The notes below the pieces were generated by a model. It worked only from the letters and a program-made list of their open reading frames with translations. It was not told the DNA's origin and made no database searches. From the IMG/VR virus record IMGVR_UViG_3300016467_000186, positions 1 to 26,168 of that record: a DNA stretch of 26,168 nt. One strand, given 5' to 3'. The stretch comes from a virus. Taxonomy: Duplodnaviria; Caudoviricetes. Every line of letters starts with the position of its first letter. Position 1 is the stretch's first letter. The position numbers and the translations under genes are program-made. Shown one piece after another: positions 1 through 21,942 of the stretch.

Positions 1-135
1 GATGCCGCTTCATATCTTGCCTTTGCCGCGCAATTCTCAAATCCTGAGCCGACCGAGAAAATGCCTGCCGTTACTCAATTCAATCTTGAAGCCGTAAAGA
101 TGAAGATGGCTGATGCAATGCAGGAGAAGAAATGA
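1..135 (+). CDS. Partial CDS (5' end outside window), DUF6378-like phage protein C-terminus
   Basis: Frame 1 is open from base 1 (DAASYLAFAAQFSNPEPTEK...QEKK*), TGA at 133-135 overlapping next ATG (ATGA). DAASYLAFA resembles the DxxxYxAxxxE end motif of DUF6378. Confidence 0.5.
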   Translation, partial: DAASYLAFAAQFSNPEPTEKMPAVTQFNLEAVKMKMADAMQEKK

Positions 136-15837: not shown

Positions 15838-16065
15838 TTATTTCTTAGCAAAGCGACCCTTGCGGGTTGTGAATTCAGGAGCCTCTGGAGCCTCTTGAAG
15901 TCCGATCGAACGATCCTCGACCGGAGCCGCCGGAGCCTCGATGAACTTCTTCGCCCGACCCATAGCGACAAGATTCTCAGCTTCCCGCGAAGGAAGATCG
16001 CGCACCGTCCCAATATCAGCAAAATCGCCGCTAACGAATGTCGCCTGTGTAAATTCGATTTTCAT
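15838..16065 (-). CDS. Small hypothetical head-associated protein, 75 aa
   Basis: GDFADIGTVRDL...A..LVAMGRA with basic C-terminus, a type commonly found just after capsid genes. Confidence 0.72.
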   Translation of the reverse strand: MKIEFTQATFVSGDFADIGTVRDLPSREAENLVAMGRAKKFIEAPAAPVEDRSIGLQEAPEAPEFTTRKGRFAKK

Positions 16066-16570
16066 CCCACTTTTCCTTCATTGGTCCCGATAGAAATTTT
16101 GCTCTCTCAGGATGTTGAATCGTGATTTGAACTTTTTCCCAAACCCTCAAATCTCTTTGCCAAACGTTCGATTTGTGATTTTCATCCGGTTGATCGTGCC
16201 AATATCGCCGACCAGATTGATAACTATCAAAACCGCATAGCAGAATTTCACTATATCCCAAATAATCCGCAATCCATAGAGCCTTCGCGCCGCTCAATCC
16301 GTAGTCAGGACAGATGCCCGACCAGATATGCCGAGAGTCCTTGATTCGATGATGGGAAGTTTTGAGGCTTGGATGGTCTTTCAATAGTTCCCACATTGGC
16401 TCATCGGAAAAAACGATTAGATCGAGCGGAAGCAAAAGCGAGTGCTGATTTATGCCGATCAGGTCGATTTCTGCCGGAAGATTGTAAAGATCAGCAGGAA
16501 GCGAAGGACCGCCGCCAAGAATTGCCGCTTTTCTGCCTGTTTTGATCGATTTGAACTGATTTAGTTCCAT
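16031..16570 (-). CDS. Sialyltransferase/Maf (DUF115, MptE-like)-fold protein, putative glycosyltransferase
   Basis: AAILGGGPSL, LIGIN, SGAKALWIADYLGYSEILLCGFD match the Rossmann motifs shared by GT42/GT29/DUF115. Start 16570 or 16582. Confidence 0.65.
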   Translation of the reverse strand: MELNQFKSIKTGRKAAILGGGPSLPADLYNLPAEIDLIGINQHSLLLPLDLIVFSDEPMWELLKDHPSLKTSHHRIKDSRHIWSGICPDYGLSGAKALWIADYLGYSEILLCGFDSYQSGRRYWHDQPDENHKSNVWQRDLRVWEKVQITIQHPERAKFLSGPMKEKWDENRIYTGDIR

Positions 16571-16593
16571 TTTATGTTGCATCGCACACAAAA

Positions 16594-16640
16594 ATAATTC
16601 TAAAAACTTGAAAATAGTTGTTTCAAATAATTAGAATTAT
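16594..16640. promoter_or_regulatory. 47-bp dyad containing mirror-image sigma70-like promoters on both strands
   Basis: ATAATTCTAA-AAAC-TTGAAA-ATAGTTG-TTTCAA-ATAA-TTAGAATTAT. Plus: TTGAAA 16608-13, 18 bp, TAGAAT 16632-37. Minus: TTGAAA 16626-21, 18 bp, TAGAAT 16602-597. Confidence 0.7.
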
Positions 16641-16664
16641 GGTAGATTGTTTTTATCAACAAAG

Positions 16665-16676
16665 GCGCTTCGGCGC
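16665..16676 (+). other. 5'-leader hairpin with cUUCGg tetraloop
   Basis: GCGC-TTCG-GCGC in an AT-rich leader, 6 nt before the GGAG SD. Confidence 0.6.
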
Positions 16677-16693
16677 AAACACGGAGAACCAAA

Positions 16694-16933
16694 ATGAAAT
16701 TGACACTTCAATATGTCCAGAAGGCAATCAGCAAAGATAAAAGGTTTTCGAAAGATTGCATCGATATTTTAGAAGAAGGCCAGATCGCGGTTTGGCTCGA
16801 TCCAGAATATACATGGGATAAAGCCGAAGGCCATCGAACTGTAGAGCATTTCTCAATCGAAGATGGGCATAATCCGCAGGATACAGTCGGCGAATTCAAA
16901 TATCGTTTATCATTTATTGAAAAAGCAATTTGA
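16694..16933 (+). CDS. Hypothetical protein, cassette gene 1 (79 aa)
   Basis: GGAGAACCAAAATG initiation site; fills the gap between minus-strand genes. Confidence 0.8.
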   Translation: MKLTLQYVQKAISKDKRFSKDCIDILEEGQIAVWLDPEYTWDKAEGHRTVEHFSIEDGHNPQDTVGEFKYRLSFIEKAI

Positions 16934-16951
16934 AATAGGAGAACCAAAAAT

Positions 16952-17224
16952 ATGAAAAAAATCACTCGTCAAAAAGTGAATATTTTTTGCAAACAAAACG
17001 GTATTGAATTGGAAGTTCATATTCCAGTTAACCGTTTCATTGAAAAACAAACTTTCCATGTTCATGCTTATGCCCCGCAAGGAAAAACTTTTGATGATTA
17101 TTCTCATAATATTTCTTGTTGGGATAGTTATGATGAAAAACCAGATTGGTCATATATCCTTCAAACACTAAACAATCATCCGCTTACAGACTGCACAAAT
17201 CCAGATTGTGAAGTTTGTGAATAA
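16952..17224 (+). CDS. Hypothetical protein, cassette gene 2 (90 aa), possible Zn-binding C-terminus
   Basis: GGAGAACCAAAAATATG initiation site; ends in CTNPDCEVCE. Confidence 0.8.
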   Translation: MKKITRQKVNIFCKQNGIELEVHIPVNRFIEKQTFHVHAYAPQGKTFDDYSHNISCWDSYDEKPDWSYILQTLNNHPLTDCTNPDCEVCE

Positions 17225-17240
17225 AAATAGGAGAAACAAA

Positions 17241-17528
17241 ATGTTCAGCGTTTCAATTCATCTCGTCGATCAGGCTTATGGTGGTCCAGAAGAAGGCGGT
17301 TGGTGGTATCAATATGGATCGCCTGATGAAGATTATTCGAAATTTACTCGCTTCTTCAATACGCGGGATGAAGCCCGTAAATATGGCGAAAAACTTGATT
17401 CAATGATCGCAGAACTGAATAAAAATCGTCCAAGTATTAGTTCTGTCTCCTCGATTGGTCGCTATCAATGGATGATTCAAGACGATCTTCCGCATGAATG
17501 GCCTAAACAAGTTCCACATTACGAATAA
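17241..17528 (+). CDS. Hypothetical protein, cassette gene 3 (95 aa; start re-called at 17241)
   Basis: GGAGAAACAAAATG initiation site; YGGPEEGGWWY motif and terminal PHYE. Confidence 0.8.
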   Translation: MFSVSIHLVDQAYGGPEEGGWWYQYGSPDEDYSKFTRFFNTRDEARKYGEKLDSMIAELNKNRPSISSVSSIGRYQWMIQDDLPHEWPKQVPHYE

Positions 17529-17529
17529 T

Positions 17530-17563
17530 AAAAAAGGCGGGAGATGATCCCGCCTTCTCTATT
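17530..17563. terminator. Intrinsic terminator after the capsid gene, probably bidirectional
   Basis: 9-bp stem AAGGCGGGA (17534-42)/TCCCGCCTT (17548-56); U6 tract on minus strand, weaker TTCTCTATT tail on plus; between convergent genes. Confidence 0.85.
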
Positions 17564-17582: not shown

Positions 17583-20465
17583 TTAGGTCGTGGTGTAGTC
17601 CTTAACAGCCGCGAACGACTCAGCATGGCGAACGCCGACATCAACGTCTTGGAAGAAGGCCAAGCGAGTGCCGCCTGAAGTCGAGAGCGAAGCCGTATCG
17701 ACAACCACATCAACGCCGCTCCACATACCGATGAAGATATCGTTGAAGTTACCGAAGATCATCGCCGAGCAGACACCCGAAGAAGTGCCCTTCGTGAGAT
17801 CACTCGGAACAAGGTTCGTCGAGACAACATCGTATCCGAGCAACTTGTTCGCATCGTTGAGGATGAAGTTACCTTCAACACCAGACGACTGACGAGCCGT
17901 TGCGCGGAGTTTCGCAATAACTTTCGGGTTCGTCAGATAGGCGAGATTGCCTGTCGCCGCATTAGCAACTGCAACTGCACGCTCAAGAGCCACAACCGAA
18001 GCCCAAGTAGGAGCGCCGCCGTTCGTGCCGATCGCCACTGCACCGATACCTGAAGTGCCGAGGATACCCGTAGGCTCATTCGAAGAACCGCCTTCGATCG
18101 CCACATCGTCGATCTTCGCCGCGATCTGGCTGATGATGTCGTTACGGAGAACCGCTTCAACCGAAGGATCAGACTGGATCATCATGCGACGAGAGATATC
18201 GACATAACCCGCGACAGTCTTTGGTGTCATGCTGAGTTGACCAAACACCGGAGCGCCTTCGGTCGGAGCAGAAGTTTCACCGACGAAAGCAACCGTTGTC
18301 TTGGTTGCCAACTTAGGAATCGCCACATTGCCTTGGAGACCTGTGAGCATACGAGCGCCGAGACCCGCCATAACAAGCGTATCGCGGAGAGCATCGATAT
18401 AGAGATCGCCACGCTGATCGGTGCCGATCATATAGCCGCCCTTCGATGTGCCTGTGCCTGTGCCGGAGATAACGTCGCGCTTGCTCCAACCGATATCAGC
18501 AGGAACGTAGAAACCGCGAGCATCTTTACCGATACGAGTGCCGATTTCTTGCGAAATTTCACGCTCGAAACCCGCCTTCGACCAATCACCAGTAGCAGAA
18601 GCATTGATCGCGCGAAGGAGCGAATAGGATTGTGCTTCACGCGAATTGAGACCGACATTATTCGGATTTGAAACGATCGCATCCGAACCGAGGCTTTCAA
18701 TCAATTCACCACGGAACTGCTCAACTGAAACGCCACGAGCAATCGCCTTTTCAGCGAGATCGCGTTTATTCAATTTCGCACCGATGGCGAGAATTTCCGC
18801 ATTTGCTTTCGCGATGGACGCGCGGAGTTCGTCCGTTTTAACTTCGGTCATTTCCAGACCCTCCAATGAGTTAGAGATAATTTCAACCGACCGCCCAACA
18901 CCAACCGACATATCGGCAGGAATTGATACAATCGATGCTTCCAAAGGAGTCCAAGAATTGACGCGATAGACCGTCCCGTCCACGCTATCATCCCGAACCA
19001 TTTTATTGACACGATAACCGACAGAAACATTCTGACGAATACCGTCAACGACATCTTGGAAAACCTCTCCTGCAAGCACGCCTTTTCCAAAGCGAACAGT
19101 CGCGCGCATCACACGCGCCGAGCTATCGACGGTCACTTCCTCGATGATTCCGATTTGCTGTTCTGGATCGTGGTCCAAAAGGAGCGGAGCGCGACCAGAT
19201 GCAAGAAAACTAAGATCAATAGAAGCCGGATTATGATCCAAAACTTCCATTCCGAACGACCGTTCGACAGGCAATTCCGAAGAAACTGCGATCTGAACTC
19301 GACGTTCTGATTCATTAACAGGATTAGCCATCATATCGACGGCTCGACGCGAAATAGCATCCTTGTCTGCTCTCATAATCTCGCCAACTGGCAAAGGCAT
19401 TGCCATCGCAGGAGAGGCTTCGAGCGGGTTTAGCTGAACTGGCGGAGCAACATCCATCAATGTTTCAGGAGATTCAGGCTCTTCCATTTCTGGCGGCTCA
19501 TCTTCTGAATACATCTTTTCCTTGGCAAACGTGATGACATAAGTCTCGTCGTTCTCAGCAACATTGAGAATATGCCGCTTTTCAATTTTTGAATCGCTGT
19601 TTTTCATTCCCGTTGCTTCCTCAAAAATCATCGGTTTGAAGTCGTGATCCTGTAACCATTGCCGAGCCTGAGCCGCCGTAAACTTGTCAGCCTTGAAACG
19701 GATCGCTTGAAGTTCCGTTTTTCCTGCCTTCACACCATATATCGCATCTATGCCATCGCCAAAATCGTTATTTTTTCGAGCGAATGAATCATACTGCGCC
19801 GGATCGGTCAGTCTTGCCGCGTGTTCATTCGGATAAGGCCGCATATCCGTATAAGAACGGAGCGATTCAATTTTCCGCAATGTCGAAAATTTGTGACCGA
19901 CTAAAGTATCAGTCGGCTCCCATCCTTCCTCTGTATTCTGGAAAATACGGATCAAAGCCGCCGGATCATCTGCCGAAGCATTGATTGAGAATTCACTATC
20001 AGGAATGCCGAGAACGCCTTCCCGCATGATGTGTTCGATCTGACCTCTGGCTATGCCGCCGGAAGAATCCCATGAAACAAAATCGCCGACGCTGAGAGCA
20101 TCTGGAGCCGCCCGATCCTGATTATCAATCCGATCCATCTGATCCACCTTTCGATTGGCCCATGCCATACCAGAATCGCCGGACCAAAGCGCCCAAGCGA
20201 TCCGACCATTTGAAGGATAGCCATCTTCACCCTGCCGGAATCCTTGCGCCTGTTTATCGACCTCATGCCGAGCGAAGAATGATTTCATTCGCCGAACCGT
20301 ATCGGGAGAAAGATCGACCCTGTTCTTGATATCTCTGGCTCTGGCGATCCCGACCTCAGTTCCGCCACGACCGAATTCCTGCCGCCAAGCAAGGCCGCGT
20401 TCTGCCTCAGCGACCATCGCATCCGTAGGAACAAGATCGATCGAGACTCCCTTATATTCAGCCAT
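17583..20465 (-). CDS. Fusion of N-terminal accessory modules, HK97-type prohead protease, delta domain and HK97-fold major capsid protein
   Basis: Protease motifs LLLDHD, NVSVGY, EASIVSIPAD; capsid motifs MTPKTVAGYVDISRRM, EPTGIL, IFGNF, DVGVRHAESF; ATG 20465 overlaps portal stop. Confidence 0.93.
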   Translation of the reverse strand: MAEYKGVSIDLVPTDAMVAEAERGLAWRQEFGRGGTEVGIARARDIKNRVDLSPDTVRRMKSFFARHEVDKQAQGFRQGEDGYPSNGRIAWALWSGDSGMAWANRKVDQMDRIDNQDRAAPDALSVGDFVSWDSSGGIARGQIEHIMREGVLGIPDSEFSINASADDPAALIRIFQNTEEGWEPTDTLVGHKFSTLRKIESLRSYTDMRPYPNEHAARLTDPAQYDSFARKNNDFGDGIDAIYGVKAGKTELQAIRFKADKFTAAQARQWLQDHDFKPMIFEEATGMKNSDSKIEKRHILNVAENDETYVITFAKEKMYSEDEPPEMEEPESPETLMDVAPPVQLNPLEASPAMAMPLPVGEIMRADKDAISRRAVDMMANPVNESERRVQIAVSSELPVERSFGMEVLDHNPASIDLSFLASGRAPLLLDHDPEQQIGIIEEVTVDSSARVMRATVRFGKGVLAGEVFQDVVDGIRQNVSVGYRVNKMVRDDSVDGTVYRVNSWTPLEASIVSIPADMSVGVGRSVEIISNSLEGLEMTEVKTDELRASIAKANAEILAIGAKLNKRDLAEKAIARGVSVEQFRGELIESLGSDAIVSNPNNVGLNSREAQSYSLLRAINASATGDWSKAGFEREISQEIGTRIGKDARGFYVPADIGWSKRDVISGTGTGTSKGGYMIGTDQRGDLYIDALRDTLVMAGLGARMLTGLQGNVAIPKLATKTTVAFVGETSAPTEGAPVFGQLSMTPKTVAGYVDISRRMMIQSDPSVEAVLRNDIISQIAAKIDDVAIEGGSSNEPTGILGTSGIGAVAIGTNGGAPTWASVVALERAVAVANAATGNLAYLTNPKVIAKLRATARQSSGVEGNFILNDANKLLGYDVVSTNLVPSDLTKGTSSGVCSAMIFGNFNDIFIGMWSGVDVVVDTASLSTSGGTRLAFFQDVDVGVRHAESFAAVKDYTTT

Positions 20466-21942
20466 CGGAGCCACCTGTCACACTCGGATTTGCCGGAAGT
20501 TTCGATCCAAACGGTTGGAAAGCTGTCTCGATGCCATACTGCTTCGCCAGTTCCTTTTCCGATTCGATCTGAGCAAAGACTTCTTCGACATCCCGACCAT
20601 AATGAGAGGCAATATCCTGCATGGTTGTAATGCCGTTTTGGAGACCAATCACATGAGCATTGATTTCCTTCTGAGGATCGACCCAATTCCAACCGCGCGC
20701 CCGATAAATGATATTGTCTGCGAACTTATCGAACTTCGTGACAGGTATCGTAACCTGATTAGTTGACATAGCCAAGGACAGCCATTTGCGGAAAATAGGA
20801 TCGATAAAATGCTCGATCATGAATTGCTGAAGCATCTTATAGTGGTCTCGATCTTCCATCGCGCCTTGGCGAATTGAGGAATACGAAACGCCTTCGAGAT
20901 TATTGGCAAGGCTGACATAGGAGACACCCAAGCCCGAAGCAATGCCGCGCAGAACCGCCTTTTCGAACTCAGCGAAGGCCGAAACCGGATGTTGAGGATC
21001 GAAGGCAGTGAAACTCATTCCCTTCGGAAGCTGTTCAAACGTAGCCGGAGCCGCTTCCATAATTGGAGCGTGATAATCTTCCATATCTACGCCGGAATAG
21101 CCGTCGCCGTCAGGAGATGTGAAGAAACCCATCTTCGAGGCCGCGACTCTCGCCGCGACAAGTTCCGCTTCCTCATATCCATCAAGCATTTTCAAGCGAG
21201 TGAGAGCGGTTGCCATCCAAGGGAACCCGCGAGTCTGTCCCGATCGATCGGATAAGAAGATATGCAGAATTTCATCCGCCGGAACGCGAATGCGTTTTAC
21301 CGAGACACCCGCAGTAAATTGCTGATCTGCCGGATGATTAGCTAATAACCAATAGGCGATAGGTTTCCCGAATTTATCGACCTCGACACCCATCCGAATC
21401 TGATTCCCATTCGGGCCGACAGGCATATTATAATTCTCGTCGAGATAGTCGCTTTCAAAAAATTGAATTGCGAAACCCCAAGGATTATCCCGAGTTTCCA
21501 CAAAGCGAACGATGCACTCACCATCCCGCGCGACATTGGAAATGAACATCCGCTGACAATCAAGCCATGACATCTTGCCATCCATCGTCGGCGTTCCGCG
21601 ACGACCCCAGATATCCCATTGCCGCTCGATGATCGAGTTCCCGACCGTATCGAGAGAGCCGTCTGAATTACGCGCCCGAACTTGAATTCGAACACCTGTA
21701 TCGCCGACCACATTCGTTTCAATCATCTGCAAATAGCGTTTAGCGTAGTCGTTATTACGAGCAACATCGCGGCACCTGTCGCGCACCCTGCGAAGAACAG
21801 GACGAATTTCACTGTCAGCCGATAGAGTGCTTGCCACAAAATCAGCAAAAAGCCGACCAGTTGCCGCCGCAGTATAGGACCGCTTCGGAAATTTATATCC
21901 ATTCGGAGTTCTTTTCTCACGAAAAAAGTCAAATAGACCCAT
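20458..21942 (-). CDS. Portal protein, lambda family
   Basis: RCRDVARNNDYA, IRMGVE, QTRGFPW, VSYSSIRQG, WVDPQKE. Confidence 0.95.
   Translation of the reverse strand: MGLFDFFREKRTPNGYKFPKRSYTAAATGRLFADFVASTLSADSEIRPVLRRVRDRCRDVARNNDYAKRYLQMIETNVVGDTGVRIQVRARNSDGSLDTVGNSIIERQWDIWGRRGTPTMDGKMSWLDCQRMFISNVARDGECIVRFVETRDNPWGFAIQFFESDYLDENYNMPVGPNGNQIRMGVEVDKFGKPIAYWLLANHPADQQFTAGVSVKRIRVPADEILHIFLSDRSGQTRGFPWMATALTRLKMLDGYEEAELVAARVAASKMGFFTSPDGDGYSGVDMEDYHAPIMEAAPATFEQLPKGMSFTAFDPQHPVSAFAEFEKAVLRGIASGLGVSYVSLANNLEGVSYSSIRQGAMEDRDHYKMLQQFMIEHFIDPIFRKWLSLAMSTNQVTIPVTKFDKFADNIIYRARGWNWVDPQKEINAHVIGLQNGITTMQDIASHYGRDVEEVFAQIESEKELAKQYGIETAFQPFGSKLPANPSVTGGSDG

What the first reader, a model, noticed from the sequence alone, without database searches (positions are those of the whole stretch)
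16594..16640. Symmetric element that is the same sigma70 promoter on both strands
Seen: two nested exact inverted repeats (10 bp ATAATTCTAA/TTAGAATTAT and 6 bp TTGAAA/TTTCAA) with matching 4-bp spacers around a 7-bp centre. Each strand therefore reads TTGAAA-18bp-TAGAAT. It lies exactly between the plus-strand cassette and the minus-strand head-completion/tail/lysis genes, which are separated from the capsid gene by a terminator. Inference: one overlapping, mutually exclusive bidirectional promoter drives the cassette and restarts the tail operon, possibly as an early/late switch. Alternatives are an operator for a dimeric regulator or a recombination site (two arms plus a 7-bp core).
Basis: partly seen in the sequence, partly recalled or inferred. 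Interest (0 to 1): 0.8.

Follow-up and report, generated by a model that had tools for sequence, protein, structure and literature searches.

The report
Interlocked two-way phage promoter, PhaR box
A 47-base mirror-image sequence in an uncultured phage is likely two interlocked promoters, one predicted to drive a swappable cassette of small genes and one predicted to re-feed the tail and lysis genes, and the tail-side start is covered by a match to the binding site of PhaR, the bacterial sensor of stored carbon (PHB); none of this has been tested at the bench.

Summary
The dyad is real, at the stated coordinates, and beyond chance (18 of 23 pairs). In 8 haplotypes of related phages the element is under constraint (11 of 47 positions vary, against 32 of 40 silent sites next door), but full symmetry is not: only TTGAAA-N7-TTTCAA is invariant, and no change is compensated. 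In this lineage the same six base pairs also read as a leftward -35 toward the tail genes; the sister lineage has a separate leftward promoter-like site. The capsid terminator is ancestral and must be read through in 55 of 60 insert-free loci, so it does not call for a restart. Nothing supports an early/late switch or a recombination site. New: a PhaR consensus box (16572-92, 8 of 8 haplotypes) covers the predicted leftward start. This scan has noted PhaR boxes on phage promoters before, on other DNA. No start sites could be mapped. New variant of a known kind; interest 0.4.

The parts
16594..16640 (.). 47-bp dyad: 10-bp outer arms, 6-bp inner arms, 7-bp centre
   Evidence: 18 of 23 pairs here, 14-17 in seven other haplotypes
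16608..16626 (.). Invariant core TTGAAA-N7-TTTCAA: two -35-like hexamers, each lying in the other's spacer
   Evidence: 6 of 6 pairs kept in 8 of 8 haplotypes
16597..16626 (-). Predicted leftward (tail-ward) sigma70 promoter TTGAAA-18-TAGAAT, start near 16590-16587
   Evidence: intact in 5 of 8 haplotypes; the other three lose -11A and read TG-n-AATTAT three bases further on
16621..16655 (+). Predicted ancestral rightward promoter: -35 TTTCAA, TG-n-TAGATT (16640-48), start near A16655
   Evidence: TAnnnT six bases before ATCAAC/ATTAAC in 8 of 8 haplotypes; positional match to the sister lineage's TTTACA promoter
16608..16637 (+).
   Evidence: best matrix score, intact in 7 of 8 haplotypes; absent from the sister lineage
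16590..16620 (+). Phased A/T tracts upstream of the rightward -35 (UP-element-like; label recalled)
   Evidence: AAAATAATT sits 27 bp before the -35 in both lineages
16572..16592 (.). PhaR consensus box covering the predicted leftward start site and leader
   Evidence: full match to WNWD2NYGCRNYGCRNH2WNW (PMC12542648); only match in the window; 88 of 20000 shuffles of the gap; 8 of 8 haplotypes, changes only at three degenerate positions
16665..16696 (+). Leader: small GCGC-TTCG-GCGC hairpin, GGAGA ribosome site, ATG
   Evidence: z -1.9, weak; the GGAGA..AAAATG unit recurs before cassette genes (family D9)
16694..17528 (+). Antisense cassette of three small unknown ORFs (79, 90, 95 aa); content differs among relatives
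   Evidence: no Pfam family for any
17530..17559 (-). Intrinsic terminator after the capsid gene, with a weaker T-rich tail on the plus strand; ancestral in the family
16031..16570 (-). First tail-side gene, MptE/glycosyltransferase-like, 179 aa, no clear Shine-Dalgarno in this lineage
   Evidence: PHROG 4603, E 1e-6; PF01973 below cut-off; start fixed by relatives

Best explanation
The dyad is likely a pair of interlocked, divergent sigma70 promoters at the head of an antisense gene-swapping cassette, with a predicted PhaR operator on the tail-ward one. Step 1 (shown by comparison): most family members run from capsid gene through a terminator straight into the next gene; this spot is an insertion hotspot. 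Step 2 (inferred): this lineage took up a cassette with a one-way early-type promoter (A-tracts, -35, -10 at 16643-48, leader, ribosome site) pointing against the late operon. Step 3 (inferred): because late transcription now has to cross an opposing unit, a tail-ward promoter was gained. The sister lineage placed it separately; here the rightward -35 (TTTACA in the sister, TTTCAA here) reads TTGAAA on the other strand, and a mirror copy of -35 and -10 appeared on the left, possibly in one fold-back copying event, since both halves depart from consensus in the same way. Step 4 (inferred): host PhaR bound at 16572-92 blocks the tail-ward start when the cell holds little PHB and leaves when granules take it up, so extra tail and lysis transcription would follow the host's carbon store. 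Two polymerases cannot sit on the element at once, but that is a consequence of the overlap, not a shown early/late switch.
For: Constraint: 11 of 47 positions vary among 8 haplotypes against 32 of 40 four-fold sites in the neighbouring gene. Both TTGAAA hexamers are invariant. The downstream -10 is kept through three diverged sequence types. Sister lineage: same ATAATT-21-(-35) spacing in 4 loci with no dyad, and a separate TTG(G/T)(C/T)G-17-TAATGT facing the tail genes in 6 of the 7 insert-bearing sister loci tested. The window's tail-ward site beats shuffles (p 0.017) and outscores all 10 empty-site loci scored (13.0 against 0.6-8.6). The PhaR box matches the published consensus in 8 of 8 haplotypes, at a place used for repression in S. 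meliloti (between -10 and start). The nearest cultured phages infect Roseobacter, an alphaproteobacterium.
Against: No start site or strand was observed: only assembled contigs were on offer. The leftward -10 loses its -11A in 3 of 8 haplotypes (probably one event). Among 11 insert-bearing sequences scored, the tail-ward site beat shuffles only in the 3 with the intact dyad; the sister and other inserts did not (p 0.19-0.71). The host is unknown. A PhaR match somewhere in the window is unremarkable (31 of 100 shuffles); only its place and conservation count. The genes on either side have no known tie to PHB. Regulator binding did not hinder polymerase transit in the E. coli study, so a roadblock on read-through is unlikely.
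Confidence: 0.55

Rival explanations
1. One-way promoter only: the element is the AT-rich rightward promoter of the cassette (A-tracts, -35, spacer), the symmetry is a by-product that happens to peak in this haplotype, and tail genes still depend on read-through.
For: Symmetry decays without compensation; the left arm's ATAATT is shared with the non-symmetric sister promoter; the leftward -11A is lost in 3 of 8; read-through is the family norm.
Against: Does not explain why the -35 is TTTCAA, a poor rightward but good leftward hexamer, in 8 of 8; nor the sister lineage's separate tail-ward site; nor a conserved PhaR box far upstream of the rightward promoter but on the leftward start.
Confidence: 0.2
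2. The invariant 19-bp palindrome TTGAAA-N7-TTTCAA is the operator of a dimeric repressor (phage- or host-encoded) that shuts the cassette promoter once late transcription has to cross it, as Aca proteins do at anti-CRISPR promoters.
For: It is the only part whose symmetry is kept in 8 of 8 and it overlaps the -35. Aca operators are 19-22-bp inverted repeats over core promoter elements. TTGACA-N7-TGTCAA recurs in unrelated phage promoters, often with a gene start on one side only.
Against: No HTH hit in the cassette or window, though part of the genome is missing; no second copy in the window but a one-mismatch site inside ORF2; invariance is also expected if both hexamers are -35 elements. 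It can coexist with the best explanation.
Confidence: 0.15
3. One reading: one symmetric promoter that acts as a mutually exclusive early/late switch and restarts the tail operon because the capsid terminator stops transcription.
For: Equal top-scoring sites on both strands in the window; overlap makes simultaneous binding impossible.
Against: The terminator is ancestral and read through (55 of 60 insert-free loci); exact symmetry is not conserved; equal sigma70 sites give no temporal order; competition needs high activity (PMC12825309).
Confidence: 0.08
4. Site-specific recombination site (two arms and a 7-bp core) through which the cassette goes in and out.
For: Arm-core-arm shape; the cassette is mobile among relatives.
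Against: No partner site at the other end of the cassette; empty alleles keep no half-site (L024, L025); gene swaps fall behind the ribosome site, not in the core; no recombinase in the window.
Confidence: 0.02

Closest known systems
Bacterial bidirectional promoters (Warman, Grainger et al.; bioRxiv 10.1101/2020.01.31.928960, PMC12825309)
   Same: Pseudo-symmetric sigma70 sequence predicted to fire both ways; polymerases exclude each other; enriched in horizontally acquired DNA.
   Different: Those share overlapping -10 elements with starts 7-25 bp apart; here the -35 regions interlock, the -10s face outward and the predicted starts are 54-65 bp apart.
PhaR (AniA/PhbF)-repressed promoters of PHB-storing proteobacteria (PMC12542648, PMC6201568)
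   Same: Full match to the S. meliloti 21-bp motif, 11 of 12 to the B. diazoefficiens 12-mer; box next to a core promoter.
   Different: On a phage, before morphogenesis and lysis genes, not phasin or depolymerase genes; single box; binding untested.
acr-aca operons (Aca1 of JBD30, Aca2, Aca7, Aca11; PMC12658196)
   Same: Small unknown genes behind a strong sigma70-type promoter that carries an inverted repeat over the -35; insertion among head genes (that placement for JBD30 is recalled).
   Different: No aca-like HTH gene and no known Acr here; the cassette is antisense to the late operon.
PeSL cassettes of T4-like phages (PMC4122927) and lambdoid morons (recalled)
   Same: AT-rich stretch, sigma70 promoter, ribosome site and start codon as a unit, behind which unrelated small genes are swapped; own terminator. 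The sister lineage's TTTACA fits the PST/T4 PeSL -35.
   Different: One copy in the 26 kb held; the hairpin lies in the leader, not upstream of the promoter; siphovirus-type host genome.

Membership tests
Warman-type bidirectional promoter | Shared or overlapping -10 elements | tested here: not met
   -10 hexamers lie 29 bp apart and face outward
Warman-type bidirectional promoter | Divergent start sites 7-25 bp apart | tested here: not met
   predicted starts 54-65 bp apart; prediction only (definition)
Warman-type bidirectional promoter | Transcripts shown on both strands | not testable with these tools
   only contigs available
PhaR-repressed promoter | PhaR consensus palindrome | tested here: met
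PhaR-repressed promoter | Box overlaps -35, spacer or start of the promoter | tested here: inconclusive
   covers the predicted leftward start; lies 62-73 bp upstream of the predicted rightward starts; starts not mapped
PhaR-repressed promoter | Host encodes PhaR | tested here: inconclusive
   host unknown; nearest cultured phages on Roseobacter; PF07879 in 1 of 2 genomes whose contigs carry a related capsid gene, which may be mis-binned
PhaR-repressed promoter | PhaR binds and PHB releases it | not testable with these tools
   needs a gel shift
acr-aca operon | Inverted repeat over the core promoter | tested here: met
acr-aca operon | HTH aca gene in the operon | tested here: not met
   no HTH family for the three ORFs or four first genes of relatives
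acr-aca operon | Anti-defence genes in the cassette | tested here: inconclusive
   no known family
PeSL | Promoter plus ribosome site unit behind which genes are exchanged | tested here: met
   five unrelated first-gene types among 8 haplotypes, by inspection
PeSL | Stem-loop just upstream of the promoter | tested here: not met
   the hairpin lies downstream, in the leader
PeSL | Several copies per genome | tested here: inconclusive
   one copy in the window; the record is probably incomplete
Site-specific recombination (att-type) site | Partner site at the far end and a hybrid site in empty alleles | tested here: not met

The most novel reading that the evidence does not exclude
A phage built a tail-and-lysis promoter by mirroring its early cassette promoter through a shared -35 hexamer and put it under the host's PHB sensor PhaR, so virion and lysis gene output tracks the host's carbon reserve; and this interlocked -35 design is one case of a widespread, undescribed class (TTGACA-N7-TGTCAA) of phage promoters.
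Probability: 0.2. Interest if true: 0.7.

Novelty: new variant of a known kind. Interest (0 to 1): 0.4.

Why it matters
If it holds, it shows how a phage can absorb an antisense cassette in mid late operon at a cost of about 50 bp, through a bidirectional promoter geometry outside the described -10-sharing class. It would also give a compact, testable case of a host nutrient sensor acting on phage morphogenesis and lysis genes, not on an accessory gene. If only the rightward promoter is real, it is an ordinary moron-type promoter.

Tried and rejected
Start-site mapping: 11 runs listed, all contigs; four laid gave no ends or strand. Extra haplotypes from those runs were not obtained. A 14-bp palindrome in the right arm as a tandem operator: not kept in L019, L027, L037. 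Recombination site: rejected. Hairpin or cruciform role: the element folds at -7.5 kcal/mol as DNA (z -3.6) but relatives break the outer stem without compensation. Irr, sigma32 and CtrA motifs (recalled): half-sites in the wrong orientation or partner element absent; not pursued. Test that PhaR-like hits in other phages are intergenic: inconclusive (26 of 57 contexts against 70 of 134 control places). PhaR motif across 50 related records: 15 match, 5 being this lineage's box; the 8 others inspected lie inside genes. A special 7-bp gap: no peak in 50 viral records (2 of 34 listed matches; 35 matches against 24 control); a weak excess in 71 genomes of one bacterial class (gap 7: 16, control 9; gap 6: 6, control 5; gap 8: 6, control 8). 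Cassette protein function: no family in Pfam, PHROGs (one unknown-function family for ORF3), PADLOC or the Atlas. No DNA-level match for the region among cultured phages except 43 bases of capsid gene. The script stopped after 10 of 12 empty-site loci; L179 did not fit the sister promoter anchors.

Full report
OBSERVATION. The dyad is exactly as reported: 10-bp outer arms at 16594-16603 and 16631-40, 6-bp inner arms at 16608-13 and 16621-26, 4-bp spacers equal in length only, a 7-bp centre. With 18 of 23 complementary pairs it is the best dyad of its size in the window; 2 of 100 whole-window shuffles, 1 of 5000 and 0 of 5000 local shuffles reach it. Both strands read TTGAAA-18-TAGAAT, the two best of 15 promoter-like sites in 10 kb. 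The record is a 26,168-base virus contig with lambda-type terminase, portal, protease-capsid, tail and endolysin genes on the minus strand. The top 7 cultured matches to the portal are Roseobacter phages at 53-56% identity; the host itself is unknown.

THE SITE IS AN INSERTION HOTSPOT. Of 80 viral loci with a related capsid gene, 5 ended too soon. Of the other 75, 60 have no insert and go from the capsid stop to the next gene within about 36-77 bases; 55 of these 60 have a GC-rich hairpin with a T run there, as do 15 of 15 loci with an insert, against 0 of 75 control stretches inside the capsid gene (the loci are partly redundant). The cultured phage CRP-701 has a similar short hairpin gap. 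The terminator is therefore ancestral and must be read through or antiterminated; it is not in itself a reason for a restart promoter. The 15 inserts fall into several independent types.

CONSERVATION OF THE ELEMENT. The window and ten loci give 8 distinct haplotypes. Behind the same promoter and ribosome site sit five unrelated kinds of first gene, by inspection. Only 11 of the 47 positions vary, against 32 of 40 four-fold degenerate sites in the adjacent gene, so the element is constrained. Symmetry as such is not: relatives keep 14-17 of 23 pairs, the outer arm 6-9 of 10, and no pair changes on both sides. The inner TTGAAA-N7-TTTCAA is intact in 8 of 8. The plus TTGAAA-18-TAGAAT is intact in 7 of 8; the eighth has TAGAAA, which alphaproteobacterial promoters tolerate (PMC8407463, abstract). 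The minus one is intact in 5 of 8; L022, L040 and L041 lose the -11A, probably in one event (same side of the gene tree), and thereby read TG-n-AATTAT three bases further on, which may or may not compensate.

Positions 16638-54 come in three diverged types, yet all 8 haplotypes keep a TAnnnT hexamer (TAGATT, TAATGT, TATAGT, TATATT) six bases before ATCAAC/ATTAAC, 16-17 bases after TTTCAA, five of them with an extended-10 TG. I infer that 16621-26 is the ancestral rightward -35. Against making it the main start: a consensus matrix (frequencies recalled from textbooks) scores it at most 8.8 against 13.0 for TTGAAA-18-TAGAAT, so both rightward starts may be used.

THE LEFTWARD PROMOTER. TTTCAA is a poor rightward -35, but the same base pairs read TTGAAA leftward. 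The sister lineage, which keeps TTTACA, has about 90 more bases before the tail-side gene, holding TTG(G/T)(C/T)G-17-TAATGT in 6 of the 7 insert-bearing loci tested; an empty-site control lacks it (the anchor contained the -10, so this shows conservation, not enrichment). The tail-ward site of the window scores 13.0 (shuffle p 0.017) and all 10 empty-site loci scored lie at 0.6-8.6; but of 11 insert-bearing sequences only the 3 with the intact dyad beat shuffles. The case for leftward transcription is comparative and moderate. Both halves depart from consensus identically (TTGAAA, TAGAAT), which suggests a fold-back copy that later decayed; this is inference.

PhaR BOX. Directly left of the dyad, 16572-92 matches every position of the S. 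meliloti PhaR motif WNWD2NYGCRNYGCRNH2WNW (PMC12542648, passages and section 19) and 11 of 12 of TGCRNYGCASMA (PMC6201568, passages; PMC10888616, passages, gives a looser motif). It is the only match in the window (0.36 expected; 31 of 100 shuffles have one) and arises in 88 of 20000 shuffles of the 123-bp gap. All 8 haplotypes match, with changes at the central N, an N and an H only. It covers the predicted leftward start, a repressing position in S. meliloti, and is 62-73 bases upstream of the rightward starts, where activation cannot be excluded. Among 50 related records the intergenic box was seen only in this lineage. A similar 20-mer occurs in about 150 viral stretches; of 120 fetched, 22 of 53 contexts complete the palindrome with ACA, one of 16 allowed triplets, and 2 of 9 neighbouring small ORFs gave weak Phasin_2 or DUF3563 hits below cut-off. 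Eight earlier notes of this scan describe PhaR-type boxes on phage promoters in other genomes; I had reached the reading before seeing them and they are not independent support.

A WIDER CLASS? The generalised interlocked pattern with 18-bp spacers hit 9 viral stretches, 2 of them relatives; with 17-bp spacers about 140, the 120 fetched forming 27 clusters. The free base made TTGACA in 29 of 54 halves and on both strands in 10 of 27 clusters; 7 of those 10 have a gene start 42-48 bases away on at least one side, mostly one side only. Mirrored -35 hexamers thus recur in phage promoters, but because the pattern demanded both -10s and the gap controls were weak, I cannot tell two-way promoters from operators.

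COMPARISON WITH WHAT IS KNOWN. Described bidirectional promoters share -10 elements with starts 7-25 bp apart (bioRxiv 10.1101/2020.01.31.928960, first of two parts of the text); this one works like them but fails that definition. Competition between directions needs high activity (PMC12825309: abstract, introduction, discussion). Aca operators are 19-22-bp inverted repeats over phage promoters (PMC12658196: passages and section 8), but no HTH gene is in the cassette. PeSLs are promoter-ribosome-site units behind which genes are swapped (PMC4122927, passages). Morons, UP elements and the placement of the JBD30 acr locus are recalled. Searches for a phage PhaR site and for this promoter geometry in the open-access library returned no paper whose title or abstract describes either; subscription papers are not covered and no supplements were read (the promoter lists and figures of the PhaR and bidirectional-promoter papers could bear on box position and rare spacings).

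VERDICT. A real, constrained regulatory element, most likely interlocked divergent promoters with a candidate PhaR operator on the tail-ward start (0.55); one-way promoter with incidental symmetry 0.2; repressor operator 0.15; early/late switch as stated 0.08; recombination site 0.02. New variant of a known kind, interest 0.4.

Noticed in passing
L193-L218, L225, L243, L250 (capsid stop to next ATG): In many insert-free relatives the next gene's ATG follows the terminator's T run directly, and a purine-rich ribosome-site-like stretch lies 5' of the hairpin, as if the hairpin loops out between ribosome site and start codon.
   Followed up: no
L325, L320, L311, L294, L312, L324, L360, L366, L388, L392 (about position 701): TTGACA-N7-TGTCAA, often with longer arms, 42-48 bases before gene starts in unrelated phages; one family accounts for about 90 of the 120 loci.
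   Followed up: partly
L178, L183, L186, L187, L184, L043 (upstream of the MptE-like gene): Repeats of AATTCGG/CCGAATT surround the sister lineage's tail-ward promoter-like site (upstream of -35, in the spacer, in the leader): candidate operator array.
   Followed up: partly
L043 and L184 (293-315-bp insert); L020: Gene-free insert of tandem CGTTGCAAG repeats around CCTATAGG at the same hotspot, possibly origin-like; L020's AT-rich insert also has CCTATAGG.
   Followed up: no
L021, L023 (insert of 1465 bp): Independent insert with a 312-aa same-strand gene (phosphoesterase-like motifs, recalled) and an acidic 109-aa antisense gene; before the tail-side ATG, ATTCTAGATT gives overlapping -10 hexamers on both strands.
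   Followed up: partly
L045-L164: PhaR-like palindromes at promoter-like positions in many unrelated phages, next to small helical proteins with weak phasin or DUF3563 similarity.
   Followed up: partly
window 16031-16570: An MptE/glycosyltransferase-like gene follows the capsid gene in much of this family, marine and other lineages alike; function unknown.
   Followed up: partly
window 17583-20474: The 963-aa capsid precursor carries about 370 N-terminal residues before the protease, with an unknown-function PHROG and a weak Hva1 Tudor hit.
   Followed up: no
window 111-125 and 132-712: Plus-strand ORFs at the left end of the contig, preceded by a TGCAATGCA core that does not meet the full PhaR consensus.
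   Followed up: no
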